64,000 nucleotides of DNA from a virus (lineage: Duplodnaviria; Caudoviricetes): IMG/VR virus record IMGVR_UViG_3300038968_000070, positions 32,001-96,000 of that record. One strand, given 5' to 3'. The notes beneath the pieces were generated by a model, which saw only the letters and a program-made list of their open reading frames with translations, was not told the origin of the DNA and did no database searches. The translations under genes and the position numbers were made by a program. Positions 12,293 through 63,783 of this stretch are shown here, piece after piece (positions within the stretch are counted from its first letter, which is position 1; each line of letters starts with the position of its first letter).

Positions 12293-12508
12293 TCATGCGG
12301 CGCGGTGCCGCGGAGCGGCCACCGCCGCCCGTCGGATGTCGCGGCGCGCATTCTGGAACGACCGCCAGTCGCCGGGCGTACTCGCGACGACGACGCGCCA
12401 GCCGCTTGGGTGGATGATCCGGTAGTGATTGTTCTTGGTCCGTTCGACGGTCGCGCCGTACTCGCGAGCTAGCTCGTCGAGCTTCCGGCGCCATTCTAGG
12501 GCGTTCAC
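12293..12508 (-). CDS. HicA-like small protein
   Basis: G.TVERTKNNHYRIIHPSG..VVVASTPGDWRS pattern. Confidence 0.6.
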   Translation of the reverse strand: MNALEWRRKLDELAREYGATVERTKNNHYRIIHPSGWRVVVASTPGDWRSFQNARRDIRRAAVAAPRHRAA

Positions 12509-12903
12509 GATCGGGGCTCCTTCGCCTTCACGCGCGCTTCGTTACGACGCGCTTGTTCCTCCGTCGCCGCGGCGACGATGTTGTGCCACGTCTCCCAGCT
12601 CGCTTCGTCGTGCGTATCGACCGCGGCGAGCGCGCGGGCGCACGTGGTGAGCAAGTCCACATCGGTGATGACGGCGAACGCCCGCTGTACGAAGTCGGGG
12701 GTGTACGCCCACCCGGAACCGCCGAACGGACCGTTGGCCGCGCGGTCACCGCAGCCGCACTCGCAGTCGTCGCGGCAGTCGTCCATGCTGTCACCCCATT
12801 CCCACGCGTCGGTGTCGCACCACAGCTCGATGCCTTCGTAGACGGTCTCGCGCGCGAGCGCCGCGTCTATGTGCTCGCGCTTGTCGTCGCGCTGCCAGCT
12901 CAT
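12505..12903 (-). CDS. DAAIDEQDRR-family paralog (Cys/Asp-rich N-terminus)
   Basis: ITDVDL...HNIVAAATEEQARR. Confidence 0.6.
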   Translation of the reverse strand: MSWQRDDKREHIDAALARETVYEGIELWCDTDAWEWGDSMDDCRDDCECGCGDRAANGPFGGSGWAYTPDFVQRAFAVITDVDLLTTCARALAAVDTHDEASWETWHNIVAAATEEQARRNEARVKAKEPRS

Positions 12904-13292
12904 GGCGCTACGCCCTCGCGCCGGGCTTGCTCGTCGCGGACAGCGTCGAGCACGTTGTGAAGCGCCGCCCAGCCGTCAGGTTGGCTCGTGTCGGTGGCGG
13001 CGACGACGTTGTGGACGAGCGTCGCCAAGTCGGCGGCCACCGCAGGCGCCTGCGGCAGCTCGTCCTGAAGGTCGCTCACGGCCCAGATGTGCTTGCACGC
13101 GTTGATGCGCAGCTTTCGGTGATCAGGACACGTGCAGGTCCACGCCGGCTCGAACGGGTCATACTTCACGACGTAGCCGCCGACGCCTTTCGCCGACGGG
13201 ACGAGCCACGTCAGGATCGTGATCGTGCGGACACTCTTCGCGCGGCGGAGCTGTTGCGCGAGGAGCCTCCCGCGGGTCTCTCGAAGGTTCAT
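12900..13292 (-). CDS. SWIM zinc finger fused to DAAIDEQDRR module
   Basis: CTCPD...CKHIWAV; HNVLDAVRDEQARR. Confidence 0.7.
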   Translation of the reverse strand: MNLRETRGRLLAQQLRRAKSVRTITILTWLVPSAKGVGGYVVKYDPFEPAWTCTCPDHRKLRINACKHIWAVSDLQDELPQAPAVAADLATLVHNVVAATDTSQPDGWAALHNVLDAVRDEQARREGVAP

Positions 13293-14896
13293 TCGCCGAA
13301 CACCTGCGCAGCTTCGTCGCTGCCGCCCCACTTCCGCGCGTTCTGTGGCGTTTCGTAGAGGCGCTGTAGGATCTTGTTCGCGACCTTTGTCGGGATCGTC
13401 TTGCCGCGCTCGTTACGGATATGGAACGCGAGCGACTCGTTGCTCTCGTACGCGCCGCGGGGACTACGGCCGTTGATGACGTCGAGCGTGTGCTTCACCA
13501 ACTCGCGCCCTACCGGCGTCGCGAAGCCGGCGTCGACGAGCACCGGGCCCCGACCGCGCACGAGCACCCAGCTATCGGGCTTGCGCTCGGGGGATAAGAA
13601 GCCGTAGGGCTCCATCGTCTTCTCGATGTCACGATGGAGATCGTAGACCTTGTGCTCCTGCGACCACTTGATGCGCTCACCGCGCACGCACTCGCGCACG
13701 ATGACGTTGTGCTTCGCGTCGTAGCGCTTGAACTTGGCGACGTGCTCTTTCACGCCGGGCACCTGCGTCGCCTTCCTGAAAAACTGCGCCTCGTCCGCGA
13801 GACTGTTAGCCCCGCGCCCGACCTTGTACGCCGTCTGCGTCGGGTCGCAGAAGACGATGCCCTCGGCGCCGGCGCCGATGTACTCCAGCGGTGCTTTGGC
13901 GCCTGCGGCGAGCGCGCGTTCCACAGCGCCGTCGATCTCGGGCTCGATGACACGGTGCACGTGCTGCCGCTCGGACGCTGGGAGGGCTTCCGGGCCACGC
14001 AGCTTGACGTCGCCTCGCTGATCGATCCAGTCCTTCACGGCAGCGAGCGCTTCACGCTTCGAGCTGAACCAGTCCTCGCCGCCCTCGTTGTCAGCGGGGA
14101 TACGCCAGTACCACGCCTGGTGTCCCTGAACCTTGACCAGCTCGAACGCGTGGCCACGGTGGGTTCCGGTGTAGAACCCCGTGCCTTCACGCTTGGTCAC
14201 GCCACGACCGGCGATGCCCGCGAGTCGTCGCCGTCGACGCACGTACACCGCCGCGCCGATCAACCCGGCCGCGGCGACCGCCGCCGTCACCGGCACCGGC
14301 CACCACGCTCGGAGCTTGGGCGACGCGCTGCCCCAGATCGGCACGCGGTGCGCGAGCACGGCGGCGGCGAGGCGTTGGCCGGCGACCTGCGCCCCGGCGC
14401 TCGTGAAGTGCACGAGGTCGGCGCTACGTGCCGGCGGCGACACCTGATCGCCGCTCAGCGCCCGCCAGTCGATGACGTTCCCCGCACCGAAGACGCGCCC
14501 GAGCGTGTCGTAGACGACGACGGACTCACGCGCGTGATCGGCGCGGCTGAAGGCCGGTGGGCCGATGGCGTAGACCTTGGCCCCGCCCGTGGTGAACGCG
14601 TCGCGGATGCGCGTGAACGCGGCGGCGTCGGCCTGGGCGTTCAAGCCCATGTCGTTGGTTCCCAGCACGACGAGGACGATATCAGGACGGTACGACACTT
14701 CGGCGGCGATCACCGCCGCGCCGTTCTCACCGTTCTTACCTGAGAACAGGTTCACGGCGCTACGGGAAACGCGACCGTTTCGACGGACGATGGCGCCGGC
14801 GTCGCGCAGGCGGGCGGCGAGGACCCCACCCGGCGCGCCGTCGCTCGCGCTGAGGCTGTCGCCGAAGACGAGGACTTTCTTGCCGCGGACGTCCAT
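13289..14896 (-). CDS. SGNH/GDSL hydrolase - TM - kinase-like fusion protein
   Basis: FGDSLS, LGTND, DLVH; TM helix; YIGAGAEGIVF..AYKV...VLVDAG. Confidence 0.75.
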   Translation of the reverse strand: MDVRGKKVLVFGDSLSASDGAPGGVLAARLRDAGAIVRRNGRVSRSAVNLFSGKNGENGAAVIAAEVSYRPDIVLVVLGTNDMGLNAQADAAAFTRIRDAFTTGGAKVYAIGPPAFSRADHARESVVVYDTLGRVFGAGNVIDWRALSGDQVSPPARSADLVHFTSAGAQVAGQRLAAAVLAHRVPIWGSASPKLRAWWPVPVTAAVAAAGLIGAAVYVRRRRRLAGIAGRGVTKREGTGFYTGTHRGHAFELVKVQGHQAWYWRIPADNEGGEDWFSSKREALAAVKDWIDQRGDVKLRGPEALPASERQHVHRVIEPEIDGAVERALAAGAKAPLEYIGAGAEGIVFCDPTQTAYKVGRGANSLADEAQFFRKATQVPGVKEHVAKFKRYDAKHNVIVRECVRGERIKWSQEHKVYDLHRDIEKTMEPYGFLSPERKPDSWVLVRGRGPVLVDAGFATPVGRELVKHTLDVINGRSPRGAYESNESLAFHIRNERGKTIPTKVANKILQRLYETPQNARKWGGSDEAAQVFGE

Positions 14897-62818: not shown

Positions 62819-62822
62819 GGGG

Positions 62823-63284
62823 TCAGCGTACCACAGCGGGCCCGGGGCCCGCTACGGCGCCGCGTAGGCGGCGGTCCTCCGCCACGACCGCGTCGAGGAT
62901 GTTGTTGAACGCCGCGAACGACGCCGGGTCGCGCCATGCAGTCGTATTGAAGACACGCGCGAGCGTCCGTGTGTACTCGGTCGTGAGCCCGAGGTCGACG
63001 ACGAGGAGCGGTGCGAACGACAAGCGCCCGAGCTTGCGGTGGTCGCCGCGCTCGCGGCGGTACTCGAACATGTACCAGTTGAGGCGCGCGTAGGGGTCGA
63101 GATCGTCGAGCGGGTCGTGGAACAACCCGTCGCCGAGGCCGTAGCCGACCGCCCGTGTGACGTCGCGTTTGCGCTCCGTCGCCGCGTGTCGCGCTTCGAG
63201 CAGCGTTCTTGCAGAACCCGCGCGCCAGCACGCCCACCGAGCGTTCAACGCGCGGATCAAGTTATCGCTGACGTGGTCATGCAC
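62823..63284 (-). CDS. DAAIDEQDRR-family paralog
   Basis: FNNILDAVVAEDRR. Confidence 0.6.
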   Translation of the reverse strand: MHDHVSDNLIRALNARWACWRAGSARTLLEARHAATERKRDVTRAVGYGLGDGLFHDPLDDLDPYARLNWYMFEYRRERGDHRKLGRLSFAPLLVVDLGLTTEYTRTLARVFNTTAWRDPASFAAFNNILDAVVAEDRRLRGAVAGPGPAVVR

Positions 63285-63783
63285 TGCGTGGCTCCTGCCG
63301 CCGGCGCGCCGCCGTCTCGACCGCCGCTGCGATGATGTTGTCGAGCGCGGCACGGTCCTCTTGCCTCGACCAGTCGGTCGTCATGTATGCCTCTCGAACG
63401 GCGTCGGTCAGGTCAGCCCAGCACCGTAGCGTCAGGTCAGCCCAGCACCGTAGCGCAAGATCGTCGACGAGGAATCCGCTCATGATCCGGCGCGCCGGGC
63501 GCTCGGTGCTGAGGAACATGTAGTCCCACAGCCGTGAGTACGGATCGCGGGCGCCCCCGCCGGTCAACGCGTGTTCGACGGCGCGCGTTGGGTCGGTCAC
63601 CCGCGCGTCGTGCAGCGCATTCCAGATCGCCCAGCGATGTCGCAGTGCTGTGCGTAGCGTGGGCACATCGGCGATCGTCACGAGCGTATCATATAAGAAT
63701 ACGCGGACGAACGCAAACCTGGCGCGCCAGCGGGCGGGGACCGTGAACGTCGTCGTGCCGGGTGCGGTGCCGACTACCGGCAC
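63277..63783 (-). CDS. DAAIDEQDRR-family paralog with GTAPGTTT N-terminus
   Basis: VVGTAPGTTT...LDNIIAAAVETAARR. Confidence 0.55.
   Translation of the reverse strand: MPVVGTAPGTTTFTVPARWRARFAFVRVFLYDTLVTIADVPTLRTALRHRWAIWNALHDARVTDPTRAVEHALTGGGARDPYSRLWDYMFLSTERPARRIMSGFLVDDLALRCWADLTLRCWADLTDAVREAYMTTDWSRQEDRAALDNIIAAAVETAARRRQEPRSA
63407..63454. repeat. perfect 24-bp tandem duplication
   Basis: GTCAGGTCAGCCCAGCACCGTAGC x2 (LRCWADLT x2). Confidence 0.9.

What the first reader, a model, noticed from the sequence alone, without database searches (positions are those of the whole stretch)
12505..63783. Expanded family (~19 copies) of small proteins with variable N-termini and a conserved NxxDAAIDEQDRR C-terminal module
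Seen: ORFs at 12505, 12900, 15469, 15890, 44559, 44839, 45123, 45436, 51783, 52193, 52582, 55630, 55974, 59906, 60725, 61120, 61380, 62823 and 63277 end in N-h-x-[DNKA]-A-[AVI]-h-[DEA]-E-x-x-R-R. Many also carry [GA]DPRR[WFY]P and hxDxDL about 20-35 aa upstream. They sit on both strands in coupled clusters of 2-4 between unrelated genes. N-termini are unrelated (SWIM finger, Cys/Asp-rich, capsid-like peptides). Five copies share near-identical DNA (TCGTCGATCGCGGCGTCG at ~55688, 56002, 60798, 61173, 61432). I recognise no named family. Inference: a modular effector arsenal in which the constant helix docks on a common partner (packaging tag, adaptor or host target) while the variable part diversifies, possibly shuffled by recombination at the conserved 3' DNA.
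Basis: partly seen in the sequence, partly recalled or inferred. Interest (0 to 1): 0.85.

Follow-up and report, generated by a model that had tools for sequence, protein, structure and literature searches.

The report
Expanded small helical protein family, phage
An uncultivated 124-kb high-GC phage spends about 6% of its genome on 21 diverged copies of one small, uncatalogued helical protein domain; the family is real and confined to this phage lineage, it is a further example of the gene-family expansions known from large viruses, and its function is still unknown.

Summary
All 19 listed ORFs belong to one family, 18 robustly and 52582-52956 only marginally. Two more copies lie outside the window in the same 123,913-bp virus record. 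An HMM built only from foreign metagenome homologues recovers 20 of the 21 copies above every shuffled control.

The shared part is more than a C-terminal helix. It is a roughly 90-residue all-alpha domain with three elements: a Trp loop (GDPRRWPD), a helix that starts with DxDL, and the N..AA..E..RR helix. AlphaFold2 gives pLDDT 82-83. About half the copies consist of little else. The others keep only the last two helices behind other N-termini, often Cys-rich.

Pfam, PHROGs, NCBIfam, PADLOC, PDB sequences and fold searches find no relative. I found it in no GenBank phage or cellular genome searched.

A 126.5-kb relative has about 8 copies at the same hot spots, five of them positional orthologues. 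Five foreign homologues are circular permutants, so the "C-terminal" helix is part of a fold, not a terminal tag.

The shared DNA is explained by codon bias, not gene conversion.

My best reading is a lineage-specific, tandemly amplified set of small binder proteins for host takeover or counter-defence. This function is inferred, not shown.

The scan noted this stretch before from another window, and has found similar expansions in other large phages.

The parts
12505..12903 (-). Family copy, 132 aa, pI 4.4. Cys/Asp-rich N-terminus (6 Cys), GxGW motif, then the DxDL helix and the last helix.
   Evidence: External-only HMM 27.8 bits. Reciprocal best hit to the relative's positional orthologue at G001 81139-81690. 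4-bp overlap with the next copy.
12900..13292 (-). Family copy, 130 aa. SWIM-like CxC..CxH N-terminus plus the C-terminal two helices.
   Evidence: External-only HMM 32.9 bits. Pfam SWIM only E 0.13, below its cut-off. The same 130-aa protein is on record as P0004.
15469..15924 (+). Family copy, 151 aa. Whole domain with an N-terminal beta part and a C-terminal FTVG tail.
   Evidence: External-only HMM 96.1 bits. AlphaFold2 model pLDDT 83.2, pTM 0.71. Positional orthologue at G001 83626-83985.
15890..16204 (-). Family copy, 104 aa, whole domain. Ends exactly at the RRR of the motif. Its 3' end overlaps the 3' end of 15469-15924 by 35 bp.
   Evidence: External-only HMM 65.1 bits. Positional orthologue at G001 84449-84943.
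44559..44852 (+). Family copy, 97 aa. First of a four-gene tandem array.
   Evidence: External-only HMM 39.1 bits. The array has no counterpart in G001, where the flanking orthologues lie 165 bp apart.
44839..45126 (+). Family copy, 95 aa (on record as an 82-aa call).
   Evidence: External-only HMM 20.9 bits. A1 profile 56.3 bits.
45123..45443 (+). Family copy, 106 aa, basic (pI 10).
   Evidence: External-only HMM 37.2 bits. 78% identical orthologue P0008 in another metagenome.
45436..45819 (+). Family copy, 127 aa, whole domain.
   Evidence: External-only HMM 48.4 bits. A3 profile E 4e-27.
51783..52307 (+). Family copy, 174 aa. Long N-terminus of its own plus the C-terminal two helices.
   Evidence: External-only HMM 20.5 bits. 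Positional orthologue at G001 124215-124736. 86% identical orthologue P0012.
52193..52585 (+). Weak family copy, 130 aa from GTG 52193 (or 75 aa from ATG 52358). Basic tail.
   Evidence: External-only HMM 14.7 bits against a shuffled maximum of 11.6. blastp to 51783 E 2.7e-4 and to 52582 E 6e-5.
52582..52956 (+). Marginal family copy, 124 aa.
   Evidence: 9.5-9.8 bits, within the noise of both HMMs. Linked only through 52193 and by position in the array.
55630..55977 (-). Family copy, 115 aa, whole domain.
   Evidence: External-only HMM 70.4 bits. 4-bp overlap with 55974-56318.
55974..56318 (-). Family copy, 114 aa, whole domain. This protein was modelled.
   Evidence: External-only HMM 74.9 bits. 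AlphaFold2 pLDDT 82.4, pTM 0.73, helices 33-41, 48-63, 68-82 and 90-113. A sigma-70-like promoter match ends 13 nt before its ATG.
59906..60331 (-). Family copy, 141 aa from GTG 60331. N-terminus of its own plus the C-terminal two helices.
   Evidence: External-only HMM 41.9 bits. 57% identical orthologue P0043 fixes the start.
60725..61123 (-). Family copy, 132 aa, whole domain. First of a three-gene tandem array.
   Evidence: External-only HMM 84.8 bits. Reciprocal best hit to the single copy at this site in G001, 9995-10708.
61120..61383 (-). Family copy, 87 aa: the bare domain.
   Evidence: External-only HMM 65.6 bits. 54% identical to its neighbour 61380, the closest pair in the genome.
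61380..61670 (-). Family copy, 96 aa: the bare domain.
   Evidence: External-only HMM 72.8 bits. Orthologues of 97-100% and 63% identity in other metagenomes.
62823..63284 (-). Divergent family copy, 153 aa.
   Evidence: External-only HMM 15.5 bits. A1 profile 54.1 bits as a seed. Paralogue of 63277 over 135 aa, E 2e-7. 70-78% identical orthologues on record.
63277..63783 (-). Divergent family copy, 168 aa.
   Evidence: External-only HMM 19.8 bits. Paralogue of 62823.

Best explanation
This is a lineage-specific multigene family that expanded mostly by local tandem duplication.

The domain. Each copy encodes a small (70-181 aa) soluble, mostly acidic protein built on one ~90-residue all-alpha domain. 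The domain has three parts: a Trp-containing loop (GDPRRWPD or GxGW), a helix that begins with DxDL, and a long last helix N-h-h-D-A-A-h-D-E-Q-D-R-R.

Role of the invariant residues. The invariant residues are N, A-A, E and R-R on one face of the last helix, plus D-x-D-L. I take them to be the packing and salt-bridge core of the fold, not a docking tag. This is inference.

Likely function. The copies differ in their exposed residues and in N-terminal add-ons, several of them zinc-binding-like. I therefore read them as a repertoire of small binders. They would be made from the non-structural operons of the phage and would each engage a different host (or phage) macromolecule, for host takeover or counter-defence.

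Shown: family, domain, copy number, hot spots, restriction to the lineage, circular permutants. Inferred: fold-core role of the motifs and the binder, host-conflict function.
For: Family and controls:
- 21 copies are found.
- 20 of them score above every shuffled ORF with an HMM made only from foreign homologues.
- The profile of the last 51 positions alone retrieved about 65 foreign cluster representatives. Many of them also carry the upstream GDxRRWPD motif, which was not in the query.

Fold:
- Two AlphaFold2 models have pLDDT 82-83 and pTM 0.71-0.73, with pLDDT above 90 over the two long helices.
- Five homologues match the HMM in swapped order, last helix first, then Trp motif and DxDL helix. 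As far as I know, only a compact domain whose chain ends lie close together tolerates this.

Expansion:
- Tandem neighbours are usually each other's best hits.
- Copy numbers at syntenic sites in G000 against the 126.5-kb relative G001 are 4 vs 0, 3 vs 1, 3 vs 2, 2 vs 2 and 2 vs 3. A sixth site (55630-56318) has 2 copies here and no HMM match in the 314-bp interval of G001, which was not examined for small ORFs.
- Five reciprocal-best positional orthologues have 34-47% identity, against a 52% median for shared proteins.

Restriction to the lineage:
- No match in 50,697 GenBank phage records.
- None of 59 motif hits in 185,579 species genomes is a member.
- Only two chance-level matches in 401 Actinomycetes genomes (one of them is in the unpublished genome G030).
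- No fused long forms.

Properties and context:
- 12 of 21 copies have pI 4.4-5.5.
- All show a coding GC pattern, GC3 0.66-0.87.
- None sits behind the exact GATCG-N6-CGATC dyads that precede large, structural-type genes.
- Accordion-like expansion of conflict genes in large viruses and large phages is described in PMC13359090.
Against: There is no functional evidence of any kind: no homologue of known function, no informative fold match, no expression or proteome data, no cultured host.

Nearly every residue of a 13-residue stretch of the last helix is conserved in the main subfamily, including the exposed D..D..D stripe. That fits a shared binding surface better than a pure fold core.

P0045 and the copies that keep only the last two helices show that this part can exist without the Trp and DxDL elements, as a module would.

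Seven copies are basic, so 'acidic binder' is not general.

The timing of expression is unknown.
Confidence: 0.45

Rival explanations
1. The constant last helix or hairpin is a docking or packaging module that binds one common partner, such as a capsid interior, an adaptor or a host hub. The variable N-terminal parts are the working ends, and they are exchanged by recombination.
For: - The last helix is conserved on all faces in the main subfamily.
- Eight to ten copies keep only the last two helices behind unrelated N-termini.
- P0045 is a natural chimera with a new Cys-rich N-terminus on an 88%-identical C-terminal half.
- A short Pro/Arg-rich tail often follows the helix.
Against: - In the circular permutants the helix is not terminal.
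- In about half the copies the whole protein is just the domain, with no 'effector' part.
- AlphaFold2 packs the helix into the domain.
- There is no excess codon identity at the supposed recombination site: 734 observed against 748 expected.
- P0045 rests on one 4.1-kb contig that I could not inspect.
Confidence: 0.2
2. The copies are small regulators that act on one machine, for example the host RNA polymerase or DNA. The zinc-binding and SWIM-like add-ons give nucleic-acid contact. Many paralogues re-programme transcription stage by stage.
For: - Zn-finger-like N-termini recur: 12505, 12900, P0019, P0041, P0045, P0049, P0076.
- The ESM Atlas structural neighbours of a low-confidence model include sigma-70 region 2 clusters, TM 0.47-0.57.
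- One Foldseek row is an ECF sigma factor, at E 1.8.
Against: - No Pfam hit to sigma, HTH or any DNA-binding family at E up to 1.
- The Atlas model has pLDDT 0.53, and the matches are at background level.
- Most copies are acidic.
- As far as I know, 21 regulators of one kind would be unusual.
Confidence: 0.12
3. The copies are minor virion or assembly proteins, such as cementing, membrane-associated or fibre-anchoring subunits. The common domain would fix them to the particle.
For: - One foreign member matches a PHROG 'tail spike protein' family (E 1.1e-5) and another matches 'virion structural protein' (E 4.7e-4) in an N-terminal add-on.
- P0017 and P0026 carry short GxxNxAxG-like repeats.
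Against: - The copies lie among the non-structural operons and are not behind the dyad promoters of large structural-type genes.
- Pfam finds no repeat family in P0017, P0026 or P0031.
- As far as I know, the steep copy-number difference between relatives (21 against about 8) is not usual for structural parts.
Confidence: 0.1
4. Most copies are decaying duplicates without a function of their own: genomic filler produced by a duplication-prone region.
For: - GC3 is slightly lower than in other small genes, median 0.82 against 0.87, p 2e-5.
- Some copies are very weak (52193, 52582).
Against: - All copies keep open frames, coding GC patterns and translational coupling.
- Individual copies have orthologues of 56-86% identity in other metagenomes, and five are positional orthologues in a relative whose proteins average 52% identity. 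So they are kept over long times.
Confidence: 0.05

Closest known systems
Lineage-specific expansions ('genomic accordions') of small proteins in large DNA viruses and large phages, as reviewed in PMC13359090. Examples from my own knowledge: the poxvirus Bcl-2-like alpha-helical paralogues and the multigene families of African swine fever virus.
   Same: - One small fold is amplified to many diverged paralogues.
- Tandem arrays sit at a few hot spots.
- Copy number changes between relatives.
- The family is absent outside the lineage.
- The copies lie in non-structural parts of the genome.
   Different: - This is a new sequence family with no detectable relative.
- The host is unknown.
- No member has a known target.
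- 21 copies in only 124 kb, about 10% of the genes.
- Natural circular permutants occur within the family.
Terminal cargo or docking peptides: encapsulin cargo-loading peptides, the C-terminal helix-turn-helix of the P22 scaffolding protein that binds coat protein, and the T4 capsid-targeting sequence (from my own knowledge).
   Same: A short conserved helical element sits at one end of otherwise dissimilar proteins encoded by a virus.
   Different: - Here the element is part of a ~90-aa folded domain.
- It is internal or N-terminal in the permuted homologues.
- In half of the copies nothing else is attached to it.
Anti-defence ('accessory') gene islands of phages, for example anti-CRISPR loci (from my own knowledge).
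   Same: Small, often acidic, helical proteins lie in variable slots between conserved genes, and their content differs between close relatives.
   Different: - As far as I know, proteins of such islands are mostly unrelated to each other, whereas these are paralogues of one domain.
- I saw no associated HTH regulator gene.
- I had no library of anti-defence proteins to test against.
SWIM zinc finger (Pfam PF04434), for the N-terminus of copy 12900-13292 only.
   Same: A CxC..CxH spacing is visible in the sequence.
   Different: Pfam E-value is only 0.13 with 12.3 bits, against a cut-off of 19.6. It applies to one copy only.

Membership tests
Any catalogued protein family (Pfam-A, PHROGs v4, NCBIfam 20, PADLOC-DB 2) | A match to a family profile at or near its curated threshold | tested here: not met
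   - 10 window copies against Pfam at E up to 1: only sub-threshold chance rows.
- 10 foreign homologues against Pfam: none.
- 46 members against PHROGs: no shared family.
- NCBIfam and PADLOC: none.
Any solved structure (PDB) or predicted viral structure (BFVD) | Sequence-profile or fold similarity standing above background | tested here: inconclusive
   - Profile against PDB sequences: best E 0.009, to a designed protein.
- Foldseek against PDB and BFVD: nothing at E up to 0.001.
- VIA-align wide: best Z 6.5 and 6.1, within the stated background for helical models.
Viral lineage-specific multigene family (genomic accordion type) | Many paralogues of one domain in one genome, in tandem arrays | tested here: met
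   21 copies in 8 clusters. Tandem neighbours are mostly each other's best hits.
Viral lineage-specific multigene family (genomic accordion type) | Copy number differs between related genomes at syntenic sites | tested here: met
   21 copies in G000 against about 8 in G001. Site by site: 4 vs 0, 3 vs 1, 3 vs 2, 2 vs 2, 2 vs 3.
Viral lineage-specific multigene family (genomic accordion type) | Confined to the lineage | tested here: met
   - Not found in GenBank phages.
- Not found in the species-genome collection by motif.
- Not found in 401 Actinomycetes genomes beyond chance-level rows.
- All other homologues are unnamed metagenome proteins.
- Only the collections searched are covered.
Viral lineage-specific multigene family (genomic accordion type) | Role in virus-host conflict | not testable with these tools
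   No host, no expression data, no partner.
Terminal docking or cargo-loading tag | The conserved element works as a terminal peptide, whatever precedes it | tested here: not met
   Five homologues carry the helix before the other two motifs. AlphaFold2 packs it into the domain.
Terminal docking or cargo-loading tag | One common binding partner | not testable with these tools
   No complex prediction or interaction data were available.
SWIM zinc finger (PF04434), copy 12900 only | A match to the Pfam model at or above its gathering score, with the CxCxnCxH signature | tested here: inconclusive
   The signature is present in the sequence. The Pfam score of 12.3 bits is below the cut-off of 19.6.

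The most novel reading that the evidence does not exclude
The last two helices are a portable docking module for one hub, either a host machine such as RNA polymerase or a part of the virion. The phage lineage would swap working ends onto it, as in the P0045 chimera and the zinc-binding add-ons, and even permute it. The family would then be a modular effector kit with a common handle, a design not described for phages as far as I know.
Probability: 0.15. Interest if true: 0.7.

Novelty: new member of a known kind. Interest (0 to 1): 0.45.

Why it matters
The family fills about one gene in ten of a phage from a lineage that has no cultured member and almost no annotated genes. Any function found for the domain would therefore annotate a large part of these genomes.

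The natural set of about 85 diverged sequences, with circular permutants and N-terminal swaps on a confidently predicted ~90-residue helical fold, is also useful material for studying how viruses diversify a small binder scaffold.

It is, however, one more case of a known phenomenon, and nothing yet points to a specific mechanism.

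Tried and rejected
1. Known domain. Pfam, PHROGs, NCBIfam, PADLOC, a PDB sequence profile, Foldseek against PDB and BFVD, VIA-align wide on two models, and the ESM Atlas gave nothing above background.

2. Gene conversion or recombination at the conserved DNA. 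Rejected: 734 identical codons against 748 expected.

3. Chance Ala/Arg-rich C-termini. Rejected by shuffled and reversed ORF controls.

4. Prophage or cellular origin.
- The motif scan of genome contigs gave 59 stretches, none of them a member.
- Five host-candidate genomes gave nothing.
- 401 Actinomycetes genomes gave two chance-level rows, one in unpublished G030.

5. Fused long forms. None at 336-2000 aa.

6. Metagenome context.
- The metagenome-contig scan found no relative.
- The contigs of P0021 (132 kb), P0023 (27 kb) and P0045 (4.1 kb) could therefore not be read, and dN/dS could not be computed.

7. Shared promoter. A sigma-70 consensus scan gave one site, which is chance level. The GATCG-N6-CGATC dyads do not precede family genes.

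8. WXG100/Esx-like hairpins and RWP-RK domains came to mind. No Pfam row for either was listed at E up to 1, so I dropped them.

Full report
**Context**

The window is bases 32001-96000 of a 123,913-bp IMG/VR virus record with direct terminal repeats. It has 68% G+C. Its replication genes are a PolA-type polymerase, a helicase, an exonuclease and a thymidylate synthase. They have only distant relatives among GenBank phages: the best polymerase match is 24% identical. The closest complete relative that I could read is a 126.5-kb IMG/VR contig, here called G001, whose polymerase is 70% identical.

**The observation**

A profile of the last ~50 residues (alignment A1) finds 21 places in the whole record. 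Nineteen are in the window. The other two are at genome positions 23412-23624 (+) and 104372-104917 (-).

To avoid circularity I built a second HMM from foreign homologues only, each at most 57% identical to any copy here.
- It scores 20 of the 21 copies at 14.7-96.1 bits.
- The best of 17,720 residue-shuffled ORFs of this genome scores 11.6 bits.
- Only 52582-52956 stays in the noise (9.5 bits). It is tied to the family through its neighbour.

All copies have a coding G+C pattern, with GC3 between 0.66 and 0.87. Together they take 7.9 kb, or 6.4% of the genome, and about one gene in ten. Within clusters the genes overlap by 4-14 bp, so the 'coupled clusters on both strands' are real.

**What the conserved part is**

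A search of 1.84 billion cluster representatives with the 51-position profile gave 76 proteins at E up to 0.001.
- Two are eukaryotic repeat proteins and are false hits.
- Nine are this genome's own proteins.
- About 65 are small (43-214 aa) unnamed metagenome proteins.

Many of these also carry a GDxRRWPD motif 20-35 residues upstream of a DxDL motif, although neither the Trp motif nor its surroundings were in the query. The consensus over 46 sequences reads P..TGD.RRWPD – about 20 residues – G..D.DL...V – about 20 residues – ANVLDAAIDEQDRR.G.

AlphaFold2 with this alignment gives confident all-alpha models:
- pLDDT 82.4 and pTM 0.73 for the 114-aa copy at 55974;
- pLDDT 83.2 and pTM 0.71 for the 151-aa copy at 15469;
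- pLDDT above 90 over a short helix and two long helices that start at DxDL and shortly before the N of the last motif.

So the unit is a ~90-residue domain. Ten copies match the full-domain profile (A3) from at or before its position 21, and nine of them show a recognisable Trp motif (15469, 15890, 45123, 45436, 55630, 55974, 60725, 61120, 61380; 44559 lacks it). The rest keep only the last two helices behind other N-termini. Some of those N-termini are Cys-rich (12505) or SWIM-like (12900, Pfam E 0.13, not significant).

**A decisive detail**

Five foreign homologues (P0020, P0024, P0026, P0040, P0059) match the HMM in two pieces in swapped order. The 'C-terminal' helix comes first, followed by the Trp motif and the DxDL helix. 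As far as I know, natural circular permutation is expected only for a compact domain whose chain ends lie close together. It shows that the helix need not be terminal.

On a helical wheel the residues that are invariant across all subfamilies (N, A-A, E, R-R) fall on one face. The small Ala pair suggests tight packing against the DxDL helix. This is my inference from the sequence. I could not read the model's coordinates.

**No known relative**

- Pfam, PHROGs, NCBIfam and PADLOC give nothing.
- A profile search of PDB sequences gives nothing meaningful.
- Foldseek against PDB and BFVD has no hit at E up to 0.001.
- The exhaustive VIA-align search peaks at Z 6.5 and 6.1 on generic helical bundles, below the background that the tool itself states for helical models.
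- The ESM Atlas gave no usable feature hit.
- No long fused form exists among candidates of 336-2000 aa.

**Distribution**

- tblastn of three members against 50,697 GenBank phage records found nothing, even at E 1.
- A degenerate DNA pattern for DAA[IV]DEQ[DR]RR hit 59 stretches in 185,579 species genomes, but none encodes a member.
- A profile search of 401 Actinomycetes genomes gave two rows at E 3e-4 and 8e-4 per genome, which is what chance gives.

The family is thus confined, as far as I searched, to this uncultivated phage lineage.

**Evolution**

G000 and G001 are syntenic, with a median of 52% identity over 78 shared proteins. G001 has about 8 copies, and they sit at the same hot spots.

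| Site in the window | Copies in G000 | Copies in G001 |
|---|---|---|
| 12505-13292 | 2 | 2 |
| 15469-16204 | 2 | 3 |
| 44559-45819 | 4 | 0 (flanking orthologues 165 bp apart) |
| 51783-52956 | 3 | 2 |
| 55630-56318 | 2 | none detected by the HMMs (314-bp interval, not examined for small ORFs) |
| 60725-61670 | 3 | 1 |

Five pairs are reciprocal best hits at matching positions, with 34-47% identity. The other copies are closest to their tandem neighbours (28-54% identity).

Individual copies have orthologues of 56-86% identity in other metagenomes, so they are maintained. The picture is an old core of about five paralogues plus lineage-specific tandem expansion, with fast divergence.

**Recombination claim**

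The 18-mer shared by five copies is confirmed. But across all pairs of copies, positions with the same amino acid use the same codon 734 times, against 748 expected from this genome's codon usage. The DNA likeness therefore needs no gene conversion.

One protein, P0045, is a chimera: residues 44-95 are 88% identical to residues 100-151 of the 15469 copy, behind an unrelated Cys-rich N-terminus. This is the only direct sign of module exchange.

**Function**

Nothing links the family to a known activity. What there is:
- The copies lie in short operons between the replication and structural parts, among genes without annotation. Neighbours with a Pfam match are a GDSL lipase-like protein, an alpha/beta hydrolase and a SEC-C-motif protein.
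- They are not behind the exact GATCG-N6-CGATC dyads that precede large genes.
- Twelve of the 21 copies are acidic.

By analogy with expanded small-protein families of other large viruses, and with accordion-like expansion of conflict genes (PMC13359090), I take them to be a repertoire of small binders used in host takeover or counter-defence. The conserved motifs would form the fold core. I give this reading a confidence of about 0.45.

The all-round conservation of the helix in the main subfamily and the two-helix-only copies speak for it. The permutants, the bare-domain copies and the codon test speak against it. Regulator (0.12), virion-part (0.1) and decaying-duplicate (0.05) readings are weaker.

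**Earlier notes of this scan**

Similar expansions of small proteins were reported in several other large phages. Those notes shaped my choice of the closest known kind, but they are not evidence here.

**Verdict**

This is a real, uncatalogued domain family and a clear lineage-specific expansion: a new member of a known kind, of moderate interest.

Noticed in passing
whole virus record (window included): Several palindromic restriction sites are strongly avoided. Observed against expected by a Markov model: CTCGAG 0 vs 84.5, GAGCTC 0 vs 57, CTGCAG 0 vs 21, GCATGC 0 vs 16.6, AGTACT 0 vs 10.7, TTCGAA 1 vs 27, AAGCTT 1 vs 21, TTAA 0 vs 7. From my own knowledge, this resembles the site avoidance seen in phages of actinomycetes and hints at the host's restriction systems.
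   Followed up: partly
the Q codon of the DEQ motif in the family copies, e.g. window 55679-55681, 55993-55995, 60789-60791: The motif's Gln is CAA in 11 of 11 copies here and in 4 of 5 in the relative G001, although CAA is only 21% of Gln codons in this genome. Part of this is a context effect. After GAG, other genes use CAA 11 times and CAG 12 times. GAGCAGG occurs 5 times genome-wide against 44 times for GAGCAAG. Unexplained.
   Followed up: partly
window 15890-15924: Two family genes on opposite strands (15469-15924 + and 15890-16204 -) overlap by 35 bp at their 3' ends. The conserved last helix of one is therefore encoded opposite the FTVG tail of the other. In the relative G001 the two orthologues do not overlap.
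   Followed up: partly
window 49708-50748: About 1 kb without a confident gene, with lower G+C (0.63 in 50001-52000). It holds a 33-nt inverted repeat (50369-50401 / 50463-50495) and two copies of ATAGAACCCCGCTAT.CGATC, 44 bp apart, just upstream of the gene at 50749. No Rfam family matches. It could be a regulatory region or an origin.
   Followed up: partly
window 56331-56359 (- strand): The only sigma-70-like promoter match in 44000-63999 (TTGACC-17-TAGAAT, 10 of 12) ends 13 nt before the ATG of family copy 55974-56318. One such match is what chance gives. Several other operon heads show TGATACGCT-like extended -10 boxes close to the start codon, e.g. before 45863 and 60705.
   Followed up: no
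window 8206-11640 (+), 13289-14896 (-), 56334-56900 (-): Neighbouring genes with Pfam matches: a 1144-aa protein with bacterial Ig/cadherin-like domains (Big_9 E 5e-23), a 535-aa protein with an N-terminal GDSL lipase/acylhydrolase domain (E 5e-9), and a 188-aa protein with a SEC-C zinc motif (E 1e-8) directly upstream of two family copies.
   Followed up: no
protein P0045 (foreign, 95 aa; contig not readable): A natural chimera. Its C-terminal 52 residues are 88% identical to the end of copy 15469-15924. Its N-terminal 43 residues are an unrelated Cys-rich segment (weak RZ-type zinc-finger row, E 0.028).
   Followed up: partly
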